This document shows positions 4,226 to 45,091 of a stretch of DNA of 64,000 nt, in pieces. The notes under the pieces were generated by a model. The model was given only the letters and a program-made list of their open reading frames with translations. It was not told the DNA's origin and did no database searches. The position numbers and the translations under genes were made by a program. Numbering within the stretch: the first letter of the stretch is position 1; every line of letters begins with the position of its first letter. Origin of the DNA: Carcharhinus amblyrhynchos (Eukaryota); contig OZ336876.1 in NCBI GenBank assembly GCA_965287045.1, forward strand, positions 49,476,001 through 49,540,000. Reading direction: 5' to 3'.

Positions 4226-4339
4226 TGGTTGATGGACCTCCATGCTGGTTATATTGGAAGAATAAACTCACTGCAGGGTTGTGAAACAAACAGCTTAAAT
4301 GCGCTACTACGGAAAATTTAACATTGACCTGTGCAGGAC

Positions 4340-4722
4340 AGATTTATACAGCGTCCTGCATGACCAAAATGCTTTACAGCCGACTAAATACATTTGAAAT
4401 GTAGTGACTGGTCTAATGGAGGATAAGTGGCAGCCAAATTAAGCACAGCAAAGTCACACAAACAGCATTCACGTGATCTGTTTTTGGAATGTTGATTGAA
4501 GGATAAATATTGGCCAGGGGATAGCTGCCCTACTCTTCTTCAGAATAGTGCTATGGAAGCCTTTATGTCCATCTGAAAGAATAGATGGGGCCTTGTCTGA
4601 AAGAGGACATGTCTGGAAGTGCAGCACTTCCCCCAAACTTCATTTTTGTGCTCAAGTCCAGGAATGGGACTTGAACCAAAAACATTCTGACCTAGAAGCA
4701 AGAGTTCATTGAGCCATAGCTA
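4340..4722 (-). mobile_element. SacSINE1-like Deu-SINE
   Basis: tRNA-like head at ~4650-4720 (GGTTCAAGTCCCA on minus strand) and body homologous to the copy at 39650-40050. Confidence 0.7.
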
Positions 4723-5290
4723 ACATTGCAAGTATGCAAATACCTTCTCAGAAAGATCCAGCTGAGTTTCTGCTTCACTAATAATTGTGTGTACAGAGTC
4801 TTCAGAAGTACATTTCAGTGCCGATGGAGTCAAGGTCATTGCAGAACAATCCAATATACTACCTGCCAAGACAGGGGAAACATGAATTATTTTCCTGTCA
4901 TATCCCTGGTCAAATTAGGAACAAACCATTTTGTAAATATTTTAATTCCAAGCTGCTACTTCTTCAATATTTGAACCTAAAATTCTAAAAATGAATGTTG
5001 TGAAGGTAATCTTTATCAAGTTTTACTTCATTCCTCTTCATTCATTTCAAACTCCCCAATGTTTGCATTTTCACTGAATTAATGAAAAGATAATAATTAT
5101 ATAAGAGAATTGAATTTATATAGTGTCTCATCACACATCAAGAACTATCCCAAAAGACTTAAGCATGCAATGAATTATGGTGAAGCGCAGACATCATTAA
5201 CTAGTTAAACATAGCAAAATGTATGAAGAAATCAGAATTCCAAATTTGGAAGACACATTTTTCACTGTATGGTTCATTTAGAGATGAGTT

Positions 5291-5296
5291 TTTAAT
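5291..5296 (-). terminator. Candidate ATTAAA polyadenylation signal after the putative last AGBL5 stop
   Basis: TTTAAT on plus = ATTAAA on minus, ~40 nt downstream of TAA at 5336-5338. Confidence 0.25.
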
Positions 5297-5335
5297 TGAA
5301 TTAAGGCAAGTGTTGCAAATGAGCTCCAATGCAGT

Positions 5336-5700
5336 TTATGTCCACTTCAGTCTTCTGTCTCTGTCCATTCTTCTGTCCACTGCAGCTCTTGTTGTGGCGG
5401 TAATGGGAGAACAGCCAGTTGCTCTGATTAAGGGGCCGAACTCCCAACTGCAACCAGCTGATGCTGATTGAGCATGAAGTGGTTGCAGGACACAGGGATG
5501 GCAGGAAGGGAAATCCCCACCATCTGAAAAGTTCAGGCCATGAAGTTGATTATACATGTCGCTGGTAGATTCTCCATGCTTGATTGGATGAATAAATCTG
5601 ACACCATAGGGTTGCAAAGTGAGCATTTTATTTTCAGTCAGCAAAACTGGGTGATTCTCATTGTGGATACAGAAAACTGCAACCACCATGATTCCTCTGC
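5336..5700 (-). CDS. AGBL5: Candidate terminal coding exon of the long AGBL5 isoform
   Basis: Acceptor TCTGATTTTATCATTCAG|GC. Phase-1 entry from the 9903 donor gives CRGIMVVAVFCIHNENHP...RRLKWT*, an open frame to TAA at 5336. No recognisable homology. Confidence 0.35.
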
Positions 5701-6163
5701 CTGAATGATAAAATCAGATGCCTGTGCTTCTCCAGCTATAAAAGAACTGCAAATATAGTGAAATCAATAAATCCAACTCCATGTGCCCCATTTTGAGCTA
5801 CACATGCATTTGAATACAGATCAGGGAACACTCAGGTTAATTTTGTGATATGAGGAGATAACTTTGGTTGAGAAATCCATTCTGCGATGCCATAGATCCA
5901 TGTCGGAGCTGCTTTCCCTTTGTGTAGTTTTCTAAGTTTAGTCTCAGAATTATCCTGGCTCTATAAGCAGAGTCAATCTTAGTGGATTCAGATTGCAATG
6001 ATGACACCACGTCCCTGAATGAAGGTTAACAATCACACAAGTTTAAAAGCTGCAAGCTGCTATAAGAGAAACCACAGATCTTGATTAAAGCAGACCTAGA
6101 CAAGCATCAAAGTCCATAAAACTCCTACTTCCAAGGGAAGTTGTAGTCACATACTATGCATGA

Positions 6164-6382
6164 AAGAATTTAATTGAATGAAGTGCAGCCTCAGCTCATT
6201 GGTGCCCATTAGAGCAAGGAACAGTGGAAATGGGAGGACTTAAGAGTTTGCTATAGCATTGATCAGATATGTAGCCATCATTGCTTGATAATATTATGAT
6301 TAGGTAGACAAGTAAACCTAATCAATAGTTGTGAATGCATATAGATAACGTCTATACGAATGAACATCTCTGATTGGTATAT
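6164..6382. repeat. Source/partner copy of the inverted duplication at 8811-9060
   Basis: AAGAATTTAATTGAATGAAGTGCAGCCTCAGCTCATT...CTATACGAATGAACATCTCTGATTGGTATAT aligns along its length with the reverse complement of 8811-9060. Confidence 0.9.
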
Positions 6383-6714
6383 GCTAATTAATTGCAATCG
6401 AATCTGGAGGTGTATGTGTTTGTGTACAAACTGTATCTGGTGCTCTGGACTGTGTCACCATGGCATACTAGGGCCCTTGCTATAGCTGATTTTAAACAGC
6501 CGATTTTACAGTCTGAAATTCTTCATCTGTCTACTTAAAGGGAACAAAGTCTGTAATAAGTTGAACATCAAAAGCCCCACAACAAACCTGATGACATCAC
6601 GGCGAAGGGTGGGGAAGATCCGAAATCGTGTTCTCACCGGTGAGGTTTGCAACTTCCAGATCTTGAGCCCCTGCTGGTATTTGCAAAGATGGCAAGCATG
6701 GGTTCAAGATCCCC

Positions 6715-7035
6715 CACTTTGTATGGAGTTTAGAAAAATGAATGGTAATCTCAGTGAAATATACAAGATCTGAAGAGTCTTGCCATGGCGGACACAGAGG
6801 TTGTTTTCCCTGGCTGGGGACACTAGGACACAAGGGTTCAGTCTCGGAATAAGGGGCATTTACCTCATTTAGGATGGAGCTACAAAATGTCTCCACTAAG
6901 AAGGTTGTGAATCTCCAGAATTCTCTACTCCAGAGGGTTGTGGATGCTCCAACATTGAACATAGTTAAAGCTGAGATAAATAAGAGTTTTGTTTCTCAGG
7001 GAATCGAGGGATATTGGGTGTGGATGTGGAGGGTG
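6715..7035 (+). mobile_element. Degenerate CR1 LINE 3' fragment
   Basis: EFRKMNGNLSEIYKI, AAGGTTGTGAATCTCCAGAATTCTCTACTCCAGAGGGTTGTGGATGC; similar to 44670-45000. Confidence 0.8.
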
Positions 7036-7599
7036 TAAGTGGTGGAAGATCAGCAATATAGCCAGAAGTGCAATAATTATAAGGAATTCAATGGCTACAA
7101 ATGTTAAGCACACTTTTGCTGATCAAACAGAAACTTCTAAATGCTTTCCTTTGTTGAGGTAAGGAAATATCCAATAGACTGAAAAATATTGTGTGAAAGA
7201 AGGGAGAGTGGTTACCATTATCCATGGTAAACTCACTAATTGAGGTAAAGAAAGACTTGAAGTATTGTAAAATAAAATTAGGAGATTGGAAAACAAGTTT
7301 AATGCAGGATTGTACCCCCAGCTATGCATTACAATAGGAAAGGACAGAAAGATTTGCAAAATTAATGAATGGCTAGAGAGGAAATACACTAGGGTGATTT
7401 TTACATCTCCCAACATATTTGGATCAGGTGAAATGTGAAATAAAGTCAATGGCCGGCCCACTCACTGCCCACCAGCTAACCCCATAATACTGTGAATGGA
7501 GAAGATGCCAGGCAACCTGGCTGTCCTGAGGTCTATTGAGAGCCTTAAGTTGTCATTTAAGGACTTAATTCCACCTCTGCCACAAAAATACACACAACC

Positions 7600-7805
7600 A
7601 GGGAACATACAAAATCCAGCATTCAATAAGATCGGGGCCGATCTGCATGAGTTGAGCTCACATTCCCAACTACCCTCAATAACACTTGATTCTCTTGTGC
7701 AACAAGAATCTATGCACCTGTCTCTTAAAAGTATTCAGTGACCCCCACCTCCACTGCCTTCTGAGGCAGATTTCCAAAGCCTCAAAACCTTCTGAGTGAA
7801 AAGGA
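7600..7805 (-). mobile_element. Degenerate CR1 LINE 3' fragment
   Basis: CATTCAATAAGATC...TCTATGCACCTGTCTCTTAAAAGTATTCAGTGAC, antisense to a CR1 3' end; similar to 11478-11790. Confidence 0.7.
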
Positions 7806-8021
7806 AAGTGGCCAGCCAATAACCTTAATAGCTCGGCCAAAAAGGCAGGAAGGAAGGGAAGGGGCCAATCCCCACGCACACCCAATTGTGGCACTTTTGC
7901 TTTTCTGTTTCCCATGATGTAGAGATGCTGGCGTTGGACTGGGGTAAGCACAATAAGAAGTCTCACAACACAAGGTTGAAGTGCAACAGGTTTATTTGGG
8001 AGCACAAGCCGCAAATTTTCA

Positions 8022-8205
8022 AAGAACATAGAACATTACAGCGCAGTACAGGCCCTTCGGCCTTCAATGTTGCGCCAACCTGTGAAACCAATCTAAAGCC
8101 CATCTAACCTACACTATTCCAATATCATCCATTATTATCCAATGACCATTTAAATGCCCTTAATGTTGGCAAATCCACTACTGTTGCAGGCAGGGCATTC
8201 CATGC
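8022..8205 (-). mobile_element. CR1/HER1 3' end inserted at the centre of the first Penelope palindrome
   Basis: AGAACATAGAACATTACAGCGCAGTACAGGCCCTTCGGCC tail; antisense WNALPATVVDLPTLRAFK. Confidence 0.9.
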
Positions 8206-8483
8206 ACTGAAAACTTGTGGCTTGTGATACCAAATAAACCTGTTAGACTTGAACTTTAAGTGTTGTGAGACTTCTTTTTGTGTTTTCCTCCAGCCTCTAA
8301 ACCCTCCCCACCAGCCCACCTTCCCACTCCCACACACATCGCAATTGTGGGTACCCCCGTATTATAGCACTTCTGCTTTTCTGTTTCCCATGATGTGGAA
8401 ATGCTGGCATTGGACTGCAGTAAGTACAATAACAAGTCTCACAACACCAGGTTAAAGTCCACAGGTTTGTTTGGTAGCACAAG

Positions 8484-8520
8484 CCACAAGCTTTCAGAGC
8501 GCTGCTTTTTCATCAGGTGA
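8484..8520 (-). ncRNA. Minimal type I hammerhead-ribozyme-like motif (Penelope-associated, partly decayed)
   Basis: TCAC-CTGATGA-A-AAAGC-AGC-GCTCT-GAAA-GCTT-GTGG: intact CUGAUGA and GAAA cores, short stem I, palindromic AAGCTT in the stem III position, one stem II mismatch. Confidence 0.6.
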
Positions 8521-8810
8521 GTGGGAGTTGTGTTCACAAACAGGGCACATAAAGACACAAACTTAATTTACAAGGTAATGGTTGGAATGTGAGTCTTTAC
8601 AGGTAATCAAGTCTCAAAGGTACAAACAATGTGAGTGGAGAGAGCGTTAAGCGCAGATTAAAGAGATGTGTATGTCTCCAGCCACATCAGTTAGTGAGAT
8701 TTTGCAAGCCCAGGCAAATCATGGGGGTTACACAGATAGTGTGACATGAACCCAAGATCCCAACTGAGGCCGAGAGACTGTAGACAATACAGAGAGTTTA
8801 CCAGTCCGTG

Positions 8811-9060
8811 ATATACCAGTCAGAGATGTTCATTCGTATAGAGGTTATTTATATCCATTGATCCACTTTTGATTAGGTTTACATAAGGGTATAGTTCTCC
8901 AATTGCAACTTGTGCATGTCTACCTAATTATGTTATCAAGCAATGATGGCTATATGTCTGACCAATGGTATATCAAACTCCCAAGTCCTCCTATTTCCAA
9001 TGTTCCTTATTCTAATGGGCACAAATGAGCTGAGGCTGCACATCATTTAATTAAATTCTT
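8811..9060. repeat. Inverted copy of 6164-6382, flanked by ~117-bp direct repeats (8673-8791 and 9060-9176)
   Basis: Direct comparison by eye. This copy carries ~30 extra nt (TGCACAAGTTGCAATTGGAGAACTATACCCTT in minus sense) absent from the 6.2 kb copy. Confidence 0.9.
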
Positions 9061-9322
9061 GTCTCCAGCCAGGACAGTTAGTGAGATTTTGCAAGCCCAG
9101 GCAAATCATGGGGATTACAGATAGTGTGACATGAACCCAAGATCCCAGTTGAGGCTGAGAGGTTGGAGACAATACACATTTCCTTAACCTGTGCTTAACC
9201 TTCTCTCCACTCACATTGTCTATACCTTTAAGACTTGATTACCTGTAAAGACGCACACTCCAATCATTATTCTGTAAATTGACTCTGTCTTTATATGCCC
9301 TGTTTGTGAACACAACTTCCAC

Positions 9323-9359
9323 TCACCTGATGAAGGAGCGGTGCTCCAAAAACTTGTGA
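9323..9359 (+). ncRNA. Decayed hammerhead-like motif (GAAA mutated to AAAA)
   Basis: TCAC-CTGATGA-A-GGAGC-GGT-GCTCC-AAAA-ACTT-GTGA: perfect stem II and stem I, core G lost (CpG-type change). Confidence 0.55.
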
Positions 9360-9585
9360 CTTGTGCAACAAATAAATCTGTTGGACTTTAATTTTAAGCG
9401 CTGTGAGACTTCTTGTGTTTTTCTCCAGCCTCTAAACCCTCCCCACCACCCCACCCCCACACACCCTCCTATCTCCTCACTGAGGTTTCTGAACTTTTGC
9501 TGACTATAATGCCTGGACTCACCCTTAAGGTAATTCTCAGCAGTGGCCACTACTTGCCTCTGGCGCTGCTGGGGCTACAAGAACT

Positions 9586-9748
9586 CAGTAAAAAGTCTGA
9601 CAACACCAGGTTTTAGTCCAACCGATTTATTTGATAATAGACTCACAAGCTTTCGGGGTTAGCCCCTTTGTCAGGTTGGACTAAAACCTGGTGTTGTCAG
9701 ACTTTTTACTGTGTTTACGCCAGTCCAACGTCGGCATACCCACATCAT
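9586..9748. mobile_element. Short Penelope-like insertion with perfect 38-bp inverted repeat and 13-bp flanking direct repeat
   Basis: IR 9586-9623 / 9674-9711 is exact; GGCTACAAGAACT at 9573-9585 and 9749-9761; hammerhead-like CTGACAA-A-GGGG-CTAA-CCCC-GAAA on minus strand in the loop. Confidence 0.85.
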
Positions 9749-9902
9749 GGCTACAAGAACTGCCAGCCAATCTGACAGAAAGCAGTGTGTAGGGGTTAAG
9801 GGTGGTTTTTCAAAGTGATACTGAAACAGATAGTGGTGTGGCACAAAGTTCAATGCTGCCACTTCTGTTCATGCTGATTCAAACAAGGATTCTCGCACTT
9901 AC

Positions 9903-21667: not shown

Positions 21668-22320
21668 ATGGTTTTGCAGGTTGAGGGTGGACTAATGAGT
21701 GTACTTTTGTCTGCACCAGCTGTAATACCATCAAGTATCCACAAATGGGTAGTGGGGTGCCCAACCTACTCATTTTTAGCAACTTTGAGATACCCTAGAG
21801 CTCAAGTGTCAGCACGCACCAACATCATCAAGTCGCAAAGAGGCAGACGTCTCGGAGGAAAGTAGATAGATGCGAGACTGACGAAGACTGCAAACAATGT
21901 AGAGTTTGCTCATCTCAACATCCTCATATTGATGGATGAGCTGCCTGTCATCTCCATGGGCTCCTCTCGCAGCACTCTGGAGATGGCAACAGTTCCTCTA
22001 CCCTTCTGCCAGTGGTCATGGCATCTTCTGAGGAGTGGACAACCATGTCGCTAGTCGTACCCTCGCTCATCTACCAATATGAGGCATTTTGAAATGAGCA
22101 AACCCTGCATTGTTTAAAGTCTTCGTCAGTCTTGCATCTATCTACTTTCCTCTGAGATGTCTGCCTCCTCTGCGACTTGATGATGTTGGTGCGCAGTCAC
22201 GTTCGAGCTCTAGGGGATCTCAAAGTTGCTAAAAATGAGCAGGTTGGGCACCCCACTACCCGTTTGTGCGTACTTAATGATATTACAGCTGGTGCAGACA
22301 CCCTCTACCTGCAAAATCAT
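21668..22320. repeat. Long inverted repeat (arms ~21708-21918 and 22089-22300, ~170-bp spacer)
   Basis: For example GGGTAGTGGGGTGCCCAACCTACTCATTTTTAGCAACTTTGAGAT vs ATCTCAAAGTTGCTAAAAATGAGCAGGTTGGGCACCCCACTACCC; extends ~20 bp outward after an indel. Confidence 0.95.
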
Positions 22321-22939: not shown

Positions 22940-23810
22940 CAAGTGGGCCCCCCTCCTTGCCAGTGCCAGGCTGTGCAGAATGCAACTGACCAGGACAATG
23001 TGACACTTGTTCTGCAAGGTATTGCAGGACCCCTCACAATGATCCAGGCAGTGGAATCTCATCTTCAGTCACCCTATTGTCCTCTCAACCACTACCCACG
23101 TACAGACATCACTATGATTGTATCTCTCTTCTGCCTCTATCCAGGGGTGATGTTATGAGCCATCTTTGCAACGGATACACTCTCACACCCAGCAACTAAC
23201 AATCCAGCTGAGCTGGAGCCATGGATAGTCCTGAAACCTGGGAGTGCCGCAGTACATATGCATCATGGGAGCTATTAGGGTCACGCAGACTTACCGATCT
23301 CAGCCCTGTGGTCGCATACTATTTGAACATTTATGGAGTTATAACTTTGCCTATTTACAAAAGTGCCCAGCTGACCTGCTGGCACCTTGATGGCCACATA
23401 GGTGCAGTCTATGGCACCCTCAATAGCTGTGAAGACTCTGGCTTGTTCAGCCTGGCTGGCTTTGTCCGTCTGATAATAGATGAATGTGGAACCACATCTG
23501 AACAGAGCAACAGTTACAAGCTGCAGCCAGCTGAAAGTGACCCTCCGTACAAATGTCTCACTAACCCCTGGAAAGAGCTGGATGCAGAAAAATTGAGGAC
23601 AACTATGACCTTCAGAGCACTGGCATTGGGTGCCTATCCATATAGTTGGAGCAATCTCTGGCCCAATCACGTAACATAACGATGTTGTTGTTTCCCAAGA
23701 GAGGCAGAGCCTCCTACGACACTGGACGTCAGACGCATTGAGATAGTTGGATCACTGCCTGTGCTCTCATGCCGCAAGCTAGTTACATCTTCTGGGGCCC
23801 ATCCTCCAGC
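22940..23810 (-). pseudogene. PIF/Harbinger (HARBI1-like, DDE_Tnp_4) transposase fossil
   Basis: GAIDCTYVAIKVP...FVNRQSYNSINVQIVCD, YPLQRWLI, EAEERYN...VVVERTIG*LKMRFHCLD...IVLVSCILHSLA; stops and frameshifts. Confidence 0.9.
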
Positions 23811-40050: not shown

Positions 40051-42455
40051 GTAGATTAAATTTAACCAAACATTTGCTCCTCAAAACAAGGCACCATTCA
40101 TAAGTGTATATTTTTGATGCTAGGTTTCCTGGACTATAGACCAAGCGCCTAGTGATGATACATTAGGCTGCTTTCAGCTGTATTTTGAAAGGAAGGTAGT
40201 GGGCGAAGGTCAGGCACAACCCCACAAGAGAGGAGAAATTTCTGACGGGTTTTATCATCAGGCTGCTCCAGTATCCAGTCTAATGGATGTTCAACAAAAT
40301 TGCAATGGAAGTCTAACACTTTGCCCACCAAAGAATTAGGTTGGTTCTTACATCAGTTGCCATTTTTGTCAACAAGTTTTGATTGCTGTGCCATACTAGA
40401 GTCTGAATCCTTATTTAAAAGAAAGATCAATAAAAGAAATAAAGATAGAAAGGTGGAAAAAGAGATCATAAAGCAGGCCTCTATGAAGCACCAGTTTATA
40501 TACCACAAGATAGAAAAACACACATGAACAACTATTTGTTTTATATCCTTTATCTATACTGCCACACTTTAAACCATGCCTTATTTTTATTCATAAACTT
40601 TTCAAATTCCGCATCAGCAAACTCCTTTCAAAATTTTCACACACATCATCCACACATTTATCAACATTCTCCATTATTTCCTTCTGTAGTATGACCTACA
40701 GAAGCTTACACACTACCAACATTAGGTTGACTGGTCTGTAGCCACCTGGCTTCTCCCTTTTGGAATAGAGGCATTATAATGGCAACCCTCTAAGTCCTCT
40801 CTCACAACTTCCAGATCTAAGAATGCTACAAAGAAAATTGGAAAATTTTACAATGACTTTTGTGAAATAATCCTGAGACCAAGTTTTCAGCAGCCTATCA
40901 TAGCTAAATGAGATACCATCCTCTTATAGTTTAAAAAGTAGCAAATTATGCTGAACTTAAGCAGCACATATGCATTTAATGAAAGTCTGAATACTGCTTT
41001 CACCTTCTTGTCAAATGCATACTGATATCTCACTCATCAGTCCCTGAGGACATGCCAGCTTTATCCTGCAGAGGAGAACAAAAGCAATGTATATTAAAAC
41101 CATCAAAGGCCATTCTTTGTTTTCCCCTGCAGGTAAATGACTAGCTTCCACTTAGTCCTCCTCACAGAGCCATGACTGAAATGGAAAGCTAAGGGCAATA
41201 CAATATTAAGAGTGTTTTACCACTGCATGTTGGGGTATGGTGTTCCAACATGAACTAACAGGTCACCACCTCAATTATTTCTAAGATAACTTCCCAAACA
41301 TTATTGATAATGCTGTTACTGTCCTCATGTAAGGCAATGGAATGATGGGACACACTCTTGCAATACTTGCAACTGGTAAAATTAGAGAAAAGGGAAATCA
41401 ACTAACATCATCACTGATAAATTGTAACTTCAAAACCTATGATCTGGAGTCAATAGGGCTCAGTAGGTAAACACAAATAACTGTGGAGTCAATAAAATAG
41501 AGCGAGACACGTCACAGCTTATACTCTTGGTCTGTTTTAAGCTTGCTATTCTTATCTGGGCTGATACTTGAGGTATGACAATTGAGCTTGGTTTTCTAAA
41601 AGCAAACACAAAGTAGGAGGATAAAAAAGAACTGTAGACTACTATCCTCCAGTCACCCAACATGGAAATATGGATGAAGACTGGGTCAGATATAAGTTCC
41701 TTCCACATTCAGTCTAGTCTCAGATAAAGAATAGCTCTTCTGCAAAAGGCCAATGTGGTCAACATCACTGCAGATTATGGAAGGAAACTAAAGGAGAGGA
41801 TTTGGGGAAATAGAAAAATCACAGGAATTAAAATATAAAAATTATTGGTGAAAACATTACAATTGGATTTGGTGGAGGGAGCAGCTAAGAGTTTAAATTT
41901 CTTAGCTCTTTGATATTGATCATAAAATGTGCACAGAATTTTATGGGGCCTGCAATGGGATAGAGAATGATGGCGGTGGGGTGGGGGAAACAACAAGCAG
42001 AAGGGGTGGAATGCCCATCACCTCGCTGCCATCATGGTATTCTGCCTGCAACGGGGACATAGAGAACAGCCCATCCATCTAGCAGCCAATTGTGTTATTT
42101 CAGTGGCCTATTAGCAGTCTCTTTCTTCTGGCCTTTGCGGAGATGGACTTCGAATTAGGTGATGAGGCCCAAGCAAGGGCCTGTGATGACAACAACGCCC
42201 AGCTATCACAAACCCCACCTGCCCTTCTTCAGAGCCTGTCTGATTGATCCCCACTTCAGTCAGCCCCACTTATCTTAATTCAAAACTTCCATCCATCATT
42301 GCATTTCTTGGTTAAGTGCAGCCCCACCAATGACCAACACTCCCGATGGTCTTGCTGAGACTGAAAAGCTGCTAGCCCTCCAAATAGGCTGGCAACTCTT
42401 GATTGCAGGTCTATTGTCAACTCACAAAACCCAGTCCTTTCAGTCAATAATTAGG

Positions 42456-45091
42456 CTCTAAAGAGCAGAATGTGGAATCATTGTGGGTGGAGAAAAGGAA
42501 CAACAAGGGGAGGAAGACGCTGGTAGATGTGGTCTATAGGCCCCCAAATAATAACTTGGAGGTGGGGCGGGCTATAAACAAGCAAATAAATGATGAGTGC
42601 AGGAATGGAACGGTGATAATTATGGGGGATTTCAATCTACATATTGATTGGTTGACCCATGTCAGATGCAGTGGGCTTGAGGAAGAGTTCTTGGAATGCT
42701 GCCAGGATAGTTTCCTTGAACAGTGTGTGATGGAACTGACGAGGGAGCAAGCTATCTTAGGTCTAGTGTTATGTAACGAGGCAGGAACAATTAGGGATCC
42801 TCTTGGGACGAGCAATCATTATATGATTGAGTTTTTGATGCAGATGGAGGATGATAAAGTAGGATCCCGGACCTGTGTCCTCTGTTTGAACACAGGGGAG
42901 TACGATAGGATGAGAGGGAAATTGGCGAATGTAGATTGGGGGCGCAGATTGGTCGGTAGGACTGCTGAGGAACAGTGGAGGATCTTTAACGAGATGTTTT
43001 TCGGTGCTCAGCAGAAATATATTCCGATGGTAAAGAAGGAACGTAGGAGAAGGGATAATCAGCCGTGGTTATCGAAGGAAATAAAGGAGAGTATTAAATT
43101 AAAAGCTGATGCGTTTAGAGTGGCTAAAAGTAGTGGGCGAGTAGAAGATTGGGAGAGGTTTAAAAATCAACAAAGAATGACGAAGAAGTTGATAAAGAAA
43201 GGAAGGATAGACTATGAAGCTAAACTAGCACTAAATATAAAAAAGGACAGCAAGAGTTTTTACAAATATATAAAGGAGGAGGAGGCTGGCTAGAGTCAAT
43301 GTTGGACCCTTAGAGGATGAGAGGGGGGATTTAGTGGTGGGAGATGAGGAAATGGCTGAGGCCTTAAATAAGTTTTTTGCCTCGGTCTTCATGGAGGAGG
43401 ACGCGAATAGTTTGCCAAATATTAAAGATAGAAGGACAGTAGGAGTTGAGGGCCTGAGTGCGATTACTGTCACTAGAGAGGTAGTGCTTGATCGACTAGC
43501 AGGACTGATGGTGGACAAGTCACCAGGACCGGATGGAATGCATCCCAGGGTTCTGAAGGACATGGCAGAGGTGATAGTGGATGCCTTAGTGATTATTTAC
43601 CAAACTTTGCTGGATTCCGGGGAAGTGCCGGAAGATTGGAAAACGGCTAATGTTACGCCGCTGTTCAAAAAAGGTAGCAGGCAAAAGGCAGGGAATTATA
43701 GGCCAGTTAGTTTAACGTCTGTTGTTGGAAAAATGCTGGAATCCGTCATCAAAGAAGAAATAGCGAGGCACCTAGAGAAGAATTGTTTGATAGAGCAGAT
43801 GCAGCACGGATTCGTTAAGGGGAAGCCGTGTTTGACAAATTTATTGGAATTCTATGAGGATGTGACTAGTGCGGTAGACAGAGGGGAACCGATGGATTTT
43901 CAGAAGGCATTTGATAAGGTGCCACACAAAAGGTTGCTTCAGAAGGTTAGGGGGCATGGAGCTGGGGGTAAGGTGTTAGCGTGGATAGAGGATTGGCTGT
44001 CTAATAGGAGGCAGAGAGTTGGTATCAGTTGGTGCTATTCTGATTGGCAGTTGGCAACTAGCGGAGTGCCGCAGGGATCAGTGCTGGGGCCTCAGCTATT
44101 TACCATTTATATAGATGATCTGGAAGAGGGGGCTGAGTGTAGGGTGTCGAAATTTGCTGATGACACAAAGATGAGTGGAAAAGCAAATTGCGCGGAGGGT
44201 GTGGAAAGTCTGCAGAGGGATCTGGATAGGCTGAGCGAGTGGACGAGGACCTGGCAGATGGAGTGCAATGTTAACAAGTGTGACGTTATCCACTTTGGCA
44301 GGAATAATAGTAGGAGGGATTACTAATTAAAGGGTGAAAAGCTGCAGCATGCTACGGTGCAGGGGGACCTGGGGGTCCTTGTGCATGAGTCGCAAAAACC
44401 CAGTCTGTAGGTGCAGCAGGTGATCAAGAAGGCGAATGGAATGCTGGCCTTTATAGCAAGGGGGATAGAATATAAAAGTAGGGAGGTCTTGCTGCAACTG
44501 TACAGGGTACTGGTGAGGCCGCAGCTGGAGTACTGTGTGCAGTTTTGGTCGCCGCATTTGCACAAGGATATTTTGGCCTTGGAGGGAGTACAGAGGAGGT
44601 TCACTAGGCTGATACCAGAGATGAGGGGGTTGGACTATGAAGAGAGACTAAATAGACTGGGTCTATACTCGTTGAAGTTTAGAAGGACGAGGGGGGATCT
44701 TATAGAGACGTATAAGATAATGAAGGGGATGGATAGGATAGAGGTAGAGAGATTCTTCCCGCTCAGAAAGGATAGCAGGACTAGAGGGCACGGCCTCAAG
44801 ATAAGGGGGGAGGGGGGCAGTTTAGAACGGAGTTGAGAAGGAACTTCTTCACTCAATGGGTGGTGAATCTCTGGAATTCTCTGCCCGTTGAAGTGGTGGA
44901 GACTACCTCACTAAATATATTTAAGTCATGGGTAGATAGGTTTTTGGTAGGCAAGGGAATTAAGGGTTATGGGGAGAAAGTGGGAAAGTGGAACTGAGCC
45001 ACTTCAGATCAGCCATGATCTTACTGAATGGCGGGGCAGGCTTGAAGGGCTAGATGGCCTACTCCTGCTCCTACTTCTTATGTTCTTATCT
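42456..45091 (+). mobile_element. 5'-truncated CR1/HER1 LINE (partial endonuclease plus reverse transcriptase), non-autonomous
   Basis: VVYRPP, IMGDFN, KSPGPDG, NYRPVSLTS, QHGF, DFQKAFDKV, SGVPQGSVLGP, KFADDTK, LVRPQLEYC; frameshift near 43290, stops at 44324 and 44408; (TTCTTATG) tail; TAATTAGG at both ends. Confidence 0.98.

What the first reader, a model, noticed from the sequence alone, without database searches (positions are those of the whole stretch)
6164..9176. Locally templated inverted insertion at the turn of a Penelope palindrome
Seen: the forward Penelope arm runs to ~8775 and the inverted arm starts (8776-8791). The sequence then switches to a 250-bp reverse-complement copy of 6164-6382, jumps back to re-copy 8673-8791 (as 9060-9176), and completes the inverted arm. 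Inference: a serial template-switch scar, either from the Penelope reverse transcriptase capturing neighbouring host sequence or from replication-fork/microhomology repair at a hairpin. It also creates a long-range duplex in the AGBL5 pre-mRNA.
Basis: partly seen in the sequence, partly recalled or inferred. Interest (0 to 1): 0.7.

Follow-up and report, generated by a model that had tools for sequence, protein, structure and literature searches.

The report
Penelope insertion that captured neighbouring DNA
In an intron of the shark AGBL5 gene, a mirror-image Penelope jumping-gene insertion carries at its centre a flipped 250-base copy of DNA lying 2,400 bases away, most likely a scar of strand-jumping while the insertion was being joined up, which offers a fossil clue to how these poorly understood elements integrate.

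Summary
The geometry is real. A head-to-head Penelope palindrome has, at its turn, a 19-bp arm stub, a 19-bp stuttered filler, an inverted 250-bp copy of 6164-6382 and a 119-bp re-copy of the turn. Local copying still holds: the two local copies are reciprocal best matches (88.9% against at most 84.5%), sisters in a tree (99/96) and share 8 rare variants. Contigs from three other organisms bridge the insertion's left junction, so it is old and no assembly error. A survey found multi-switch turns in 10 of 97 other copies, one independent local inverted capture of single-copy DNA with the same polarity, and one copy of a turn pasted nearby. Best reading: serial microhomology-guided template switching while the two cDNA ends were joined, or soon after; enzyme not identified. 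A later hairpin break and RT capture of AGBL5 pre-mRNA remain open. LINE-1 shows the same kind of event. The scan noted a related flank-copying Penelope elsewhere in this genome (e1-9949896). The RNA duplex is possible but unremarkable.

The parts
6014..6584 (+). Source element: one copy of a dispersed repeat of about 570 bp with TG...CA ends (solo-LTR-like; class not determined)
   Evidence: other copies match from about 6014-6024 to 6584
6164..6382 (+). Template segment, internal to the source element; has since lost 33 bp, of which organism B keeps 27
7869..8331 (+). Tandem duplicate (copy 1) of the palindrome with both flanks; its centre is missing and holds a different dispersed repeat
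   Evidence: arms cover family positions 1-116 and 117-48
8022..8203 (.). Dispersed repeat in the centre of copy 1 (looks like a CR1/L2 LINE 3' end; label recalled, not tested)
   Evidence: 92% match elsewhere in the 664-kb stretch
8385..8772 (-). Forward Penelope arm with the one-sided ~40-bp tail (element antisense on +)
   Evidence: 92% to family majority
8773..8791 (+). Turn with a short stutter, then stub of the inverted arm (complement of 8669-8688)
8792..8810 (+). 19-bp filler repeating TACCAGTC from the first bases of the insertion at a 15-bp period
   Evidence: 8-nt match within 40 nt, reached by 3 of 300 shuffles
8811..9060 (-). Locally templated inverted insertion, 250 bp; 2-bp microhomology (TT) at its right end
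9060..9176 (+). Second copy of 8673-8791, including the turn junction
9161..9414 (+). Inverted Penelope arm (family positions about 301 to 44), no tail
9415..9466 (+). Right flank, duplicated at 8276-8331; the tandem-duplication junction near 8325-8340 has CCCACAC-type microhomology
4861..9900 (-). AGBL5 intron that holds both template and insertion

Best explanation
A Penelope head-to-head insertion holds at its turn a flipped 250-bp copy of neighbouring DNA and a second copy of the turn itself, most likely made by serial microhomology-guided template switching while the two cDNA ends were being joined or soon after. Shown: the geometry, the local origin of the copy, short repeats at two junctions, a 2-bp microhomology at the third, and an age older than the split from three other organisms. 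Inferred: both cut strands primed cDNA; the two 3' ends annealed through GGC/GCC and began to extend (19 nt on one strand, about 100 nt on the other); the join fell apart where each strand could fold on itself; one end then copied 250 nt from the DNA 2.4 kb upstream and re-annealed, leaving 119 bp duplicated. The polymerase would most likely be a host repair enzyme (MMEJ/MMBIR type). The product is a dead intronic scar with no shown function.
For: Local origin: reciprocal best matches, 88.9% against at most 84.5% and 81.4% among 35 other copies; 19 shared departures from the family majority against at most 11 for any other copy; 8 of them seen in at most 3 of 35 others; sister pair 99/96 in a 31-row tree; organism B's source keeps 27 bp of the deleted piece with the GGAGAA variant of the insertion. 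Early timing: the two 119-bp copies share only 2 departures from the Penelope majority, both common in the family (5 and 7 of 29), against 5 and 2 private ones; five pairwise divergences at the locus are homogeneous (p=0.32). Family habit: two or more switches at the turn in 9 of 39 and 1 of 58 other copies; stuttered fillers at L170, L179 and L227 (my reading of the printed junctions); a second inverted capture, 79 bp of single-copy DNA about 600 bp away, same polarity. A purified PLE protein cleaves and extends both strands (PMC11167929, parts 1-2 of 4 read). LINE-1 insertions with DNA templated from near the site (PMC11702581, passages).
Against: The insertion and re-copy are less diverged (34 of 333) than the two arms (36 of 226), p=0.051, and the pasted turn at L140 is 96% identical while its arms are 89%; both lean to a later event. 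The re-copy includes the turn, so the turn had to exist on both strands first. The locus was also tandemly duplicated, so it rearranged after insertion at least once. Direction of synthesis is not readable from the stutter. Local capture is rare: 1 among about 78 other palindromes (17 + 27 + 34), and 34 of these had only 1.5 kb of flank. No call identifies the enzyme.
Confidence: 0.5

Rival explanations
1. Later break at the hairpin tip. The finished palindrome formed a hairpin or cruciform that was cut with a 119-nt stagger; the resected left end folded back on its own strand at 6382, copied 250 nt and rejoined through TT. Penelope supplied only the fragile site.
For: The duplication ends lie within about 4 nt of symmetric positions on the two arms (family positions 290 and 286). 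Lower divergence than the arms (p=0.051). L140 shows a turn copied into a neighbouring repeat at 96% identity. The tandem duplication shows later instability.
Against: No private mutation is shared by the two 119-bp copies, so any delay was short; by my rough estimate under 40-60% of the element's age. The 84-nt loop is long for cruciform extrusion (own knowledge). Stutters also occur at the turn itself and at other simple turns. No pre-event allele appeared in 8 runs laid.
Confidence: 0.25
2. Penelope RT itself jumped. The bottom-strand end, after copying through the turn, switched to the nascent AGBL5 pre-mRNA (or to local DNA), reverse-transcribed 6164-6382 and rejoined.
For: AGBL5 is on the minus strand, so the bottom strand across the insertion reads as cDNA of the pre-mRNA. 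Jumps to Penelope segments absent from either arm (L139, L171, L172, L185) need the RNA as template, so this RT does jump. Host-DNA capture in Pen1 spacers and template jumps are proposed in PMC3846280 (passages).
Against: The orientation fits DNA fold-back equally well. The 119-bp re-copy contains a junction that no RNA holds. The gene context of the second capture was not examined. No expression data were obtained.
Confidence: 0.22
3. Two independent insertions of a dispersed repeat, one by chance into the turn.
For: The segment belongs to a family with 40 or more copies, and only 40 of 414 candidates were scored.
Against: The insert is an internal piece without the family's ends; it is sister to the neighbour with rare shared variants; the second capture uses single-copy DNA.
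Confidence: 0.03

Closest known systems
[quoted passage not shown]
   Same: Two reverse-transcribed ends joined through microhomology, with a locally templated host segment and template switches at the joint.
   Different: Here the element is a GIY-YIG Penelope with overlapping mirror arms, the event is old and shared between species, and the turn itself is re-copied over 119 bp.
EN+ Penelope-like insertions with inverted 5'-truncated copy and one-sided 30-40-bp tail (PMC8557442 passages; PMC3846280 passages; PMC11167929 parts 1-2)
   Same: Head-to-head arms, tail on one arm, both-strand priming.
   Different: The passages read describe captured host spacers (Pen1_Av) but no inverted copy of the adjacent flank at the turn with a duplicated turn.
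Polymerase-theta templated insertions and FoSTeS/MMBIR complex insertions (features recalled; PMC5120786 seen only as a search listing)
   Same: Short iterated filler, 2-3-bp microhomologies, inverted local template, flanking duplication.
   Different: 250 bp from 2.4 kb away is long for typical theta inserts (recalled); enzyme not testable from sequence.

Membership tests
EN+ Penelope-like element | RT ORF with C-terminal GIY-YIG endonuclease, two cysteines between the motifs | tested here: met
   In longer copies of the same family, not in the window's truncated arms: RVT_1 at E=1.4e-4, below the curated cut-off; VYLIRCRKGC...WYIG in L145 and L150, read against PMC8557442. GIY-YIG was not confirmed by a Pfam hit.
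EN+ Penelope-like element | Inverted 5'-truncated copy with a 30-40-bp tail on one arm only | tested here: met
   Forward arm starts at family position 4, inverted arm ends near 44; 61 of 97 other copies have an adjacent inverted arm
EN+ Penelope-like element | Target-site duplication | tested here: inconclusive
   Flanks are T-rich and loosely alike; no clean duplication
EN+ Penelope-like element | Hammerhead ribozyme in the pLTR | not tested
   No RNA search was run on the arms
Locally templated insertion | Insert derives from the nearby copy, not from a distant one | tested here: met
   tested against 35 of several hundred candidate copies
Locally templated insertion | Microhomology or iterated filler at the junctions | tested here: met
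   TT at 9059-9060; 8-nt repeat in the filler, 3 of 300 shuffles; 2 bp alone is weak
Co-insertional retrotransposon junction capture | Capture is as old as the insertion | tested here: inconclusive
   No private shared mutations, homogeneity p=0.32, but insert plus re-copy against arms p=0.051
Polymerase-theta / MMBIR repair product | Dependence on the host polymerase | not testable with these tools
   Needs genetics or biochemistry
Independent mobile-element insertion | Insert has the element's own ends and a short target-site duplication | tested here: not met
   Insert covers only 6164-6382 of an element running about 6014-6584

The most novel reading that the evidence does not exclude
Penelope integration routinely passes through two free, same-sense cDNA ends whose enzyme (possibly the telomerase-like RT itself) jumps among element RNA, nascent cDNA and nearby host DNA or pre-mRNA. 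The turn of each palindrome records these jumps, about one in a hundred captures and inverts host sequence, and the thousands of shark copies are a ready data set for solving the integration mechanism.
Probability: 0.25. Interest if true: 0.68.

Novelty: new member of a known kind. Interest (0 to 1): 0.41.

Why it matters
How Penelope-like elements finish integration and form head-to-head repeats is unresolved (PMC11167929 calls the later steps unvalidated). Turn junctions with switches, stutters and captured flank favour two cDNA ends joined by repair-type synthesis, and they can be counted genome-wide. They also show a route by which these elements duplicate and invert host DNA. This single locus is a dead intronic scar with no evidence of function.

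Tried and rejected
Copy-number test as proof of local origin: failed, the source is a repeat; replaced by alignment and tree. Six partial matches of 37 rows were left out of the tree. Pfam did not find AGBL5 here: PF18027 and PF00246 genome searches missed the locus and 78 of 137 ORFs scanned gave no peptidase hit; it was found by motif scan, homologue search and tblastn. No RNA holder listed, so expression, duplex and editing are untested. Runs of organisms D-G showed no cover at 8790-8803 and no piece across the turn; this says nothing about presence or a pre-event allele. The right junction (9060) is passed by only 24-28 letters in three contigs, below the tool's 31-letter rule. Candidates for further local captures rejected: L153 and L193 (dispersed repeats), L146 and L207 (tandem repeats), L144, L150, L162, L174 (matches outside the turn). 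Best filler matches at L167, L185, L227 were Penelope-derived; L179 and L197 had 12-point flank matches above 40 of 40 shuffles that I did not follow up. Paper searches gave no report of inverted flank capture at a Penelope turn; the library lacks most subscription papers, and the supplementary figures S9-S10 of PMC11702581 were not seen. A word search of earlier findings gave nothing.

Full report
Observation. Against the family majority of 29 other copies the forward arm runs from position 1-4 to 388 (8385-8772), the stub 8773-8791 is positions 304-286 inverted, and the final arm runs from about 301 to 44. A 19-bp filler (8792-8810) separates stub and insertion. The host gene is AGBL5 on the minus strand (closest hit a shark protein at 97%), and the locus lies in the intron 4861-9900.

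Element identity. Longer copies of the family carry RT fragments (RVT_1, E=1.4e-4, below cut-off) and a VYLIRCRKGC...WYIG stretch that fits the PLE endonuclease as described in PMC8557442 (passages). The one-sided tail and inverted truncated copy are the known PLE footprint. Of 97 other copies examined, 61 have an adjacent inverted arm.

Is the copy local? In raw bit score four distant copies beat the neighbour, but that is due to a 33-bp deletion in the neighbour. Gap-free, the pair are reciprocal best matches at 88.9%, against at most 84.5% and 81.4% for 35 others; they share 19 departures from the majority (others at most 11), 8 of them found in at most 3 of 35 copies. A tree of 31 rows (6 partial rows left out) makes them sisters at 99/96 with a stem of 0.05 and tips of 0.048 and 0.073. 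In organism B the source keeps 27 bp of the deleted piece, with the GGAGAA variant seen in the insertion and not in the aligned family rows printed. Only 35 of several hundred candidates were compared, so a closer distant copy is not formally excluded.

Assembly and age. Contigs bridge the stub-filler-insertion junction in run X3 (8737-8939, 0 differences; same study as the best holders, so not independent), X4 organism A (8743-9088), X6 organism B (8711-9086, 16 differences) and X10 organism C (8743-9040, 20 differences). The right junction is passed by only 24-28 letters. Four further runs gave no orthologous piece. The structure is therefore real and older than those splits.

Junctions. The turn carries a short stutter around GGC; the filler repeats TACCAGTC from the start of the insertion at a 15-bp period (3 of 300 shuffles reach 8 nt); the right junction has TT on both sides. 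The filler shares the insertion's own variant rather than the source's, so a later slippage could also explain it. The duplicated 119 bp end within about 4 nt of symmetric positions on the two arms, so the duplicated unit is the hairpin tip.

Timing. The two 119-bp copies share 2 departures from the majority, both common in the family, against 7 private ones in 98 columns. Divergences are 24/216 (insert), 10/117 (re-copy), 36/226 (arms), 19/139 and 17/120 (tandem duplication); homogeneity p=0.32, insert plus re-copy against arms p=0.051. The event is early, but same-moment and soon-after cannot be separated.

Survey. In 39 copies with 10 kb of context, 9 have two or more switches at the turn; in 58 copies with 3 kb, 1 has. 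Several switches go to Penelope segments absent from either arm. No local host capture appeared in these sets, but the 3-kb set could not see a source as far away as here. In 664 kb of contiguous DNA with 18 head-to-head pairs there are two captures: this one and C7:49405494-49405572, a 79-bp inverted copy (84%) of DNA about 600 bp from the tail arm, with the same polarity and exactly two genomic matches. At L140 a 90-bp copy of the turn (96%) sits 120 bp upstream of its element. All surveyed copies were picked by likeness to my queries, so the rates are rough.

Mechanism. A purified PLE protein cleaves and extends both strands (PMC11167929, parts 1-2 of 4), which gives two same-sense cDNA ends that must be joined. 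I infer annealing through GGC/GCC, partial extension on both strands, collapse, a 250-nt excursion on nearby DNA and re-annealing, most likely by host MMEJ/MMBIR-type synthesis (0.50). A later staggered break at the hairpin (0.25) fits the symmetry and the lower divergence. An RT jump (0.22) fits the orientation, since the bottom strand across the insertion reads as cDNA of the AGBL5 pre-mRNA. Independent insertion is nearly excluded (0.03).

Known context. LINE-1 insertions with sequence templated from near the site are reported (three cases; PMC11702581, passages; its supplementary figures were not seen). Host-DNA capture inside PLE insertions is reported in PMC3846280 (passages). Five searches found no report of inverted flank capture at a PLE turn. 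An earlier, unchecked note of this scan describes a Penelope insertion that mirrored 1.1 kb of flank in the same genome (e1-9949896).

RNA duplex. Both segments lie in one intron and could pair (-270 kcal/mol), but the Penelope arms pair more strongly and closer (-322), and the window holds other inverted pairs. Nothing here shows a function.

Verdict. A real, well-supported locally templated insertion; a new member of a known kind; moderate interest as a handle on Penelope integration.

Noticed in passing
window 7869-8331 / 8332-9466: The Penelope palindrome and both flanks are tandemly duplicated (about 14% diverged) with microhomology at the junction; copy 1 lost its centre almost symmetrically (positions 116/117) and holds another repeat there.
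   Followed up: partly
L111:9494-9572 (G000:C7:49405494-49405572), source L112:283-362: Second Penelope palindrome with a 79-bp inverted capture of single-copy DNA at its turn, same polarity, no duplicated turn.
   Followed up: yes
L140 (G000:C12:70449140-70459139; oriented 4291-4380): A 90-bp copy of a Penelope turn junction (96%) lies 120 bp upstream of its own element, inside a SINE-like repeat (label recalled).
   Followed up: partly
L140, L151 and window 8773/9161: The inverted arm begins at nearly the same family position (304-307) in three separate insertions, and two single arms end near it; possibly the RNA 5' end or a preferred annealing site.
   Followed up: no
L147, L167, L171, L172 (10-kb loci): Turns with three to seven Penelope pieces in alternating orientation.
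   Followed up: partly
L164 oriented 4442-4487 / 7527-7572: About 46-55 bp of flank is duplicated on both sides of a Penelope insertion (87%), longer than a usual target-site duplication.
   Followed up: partly
window 9582-9756: A separate small Penelope palindrome 160 bp downstream, with the tail on the other arm.
   Followed up: no
window 21708-22300: A 590-bp palindrome (79%) not matched by this Penelope family's majority sequence.
   Followed up: no
window 42451-44326: LINE with endonuclease (PF14529) and RT (PF00078) frames inside an AGBL5 intron; a weak DDE_Tnp_4 hit at 23284-23751.
   Followed up: no
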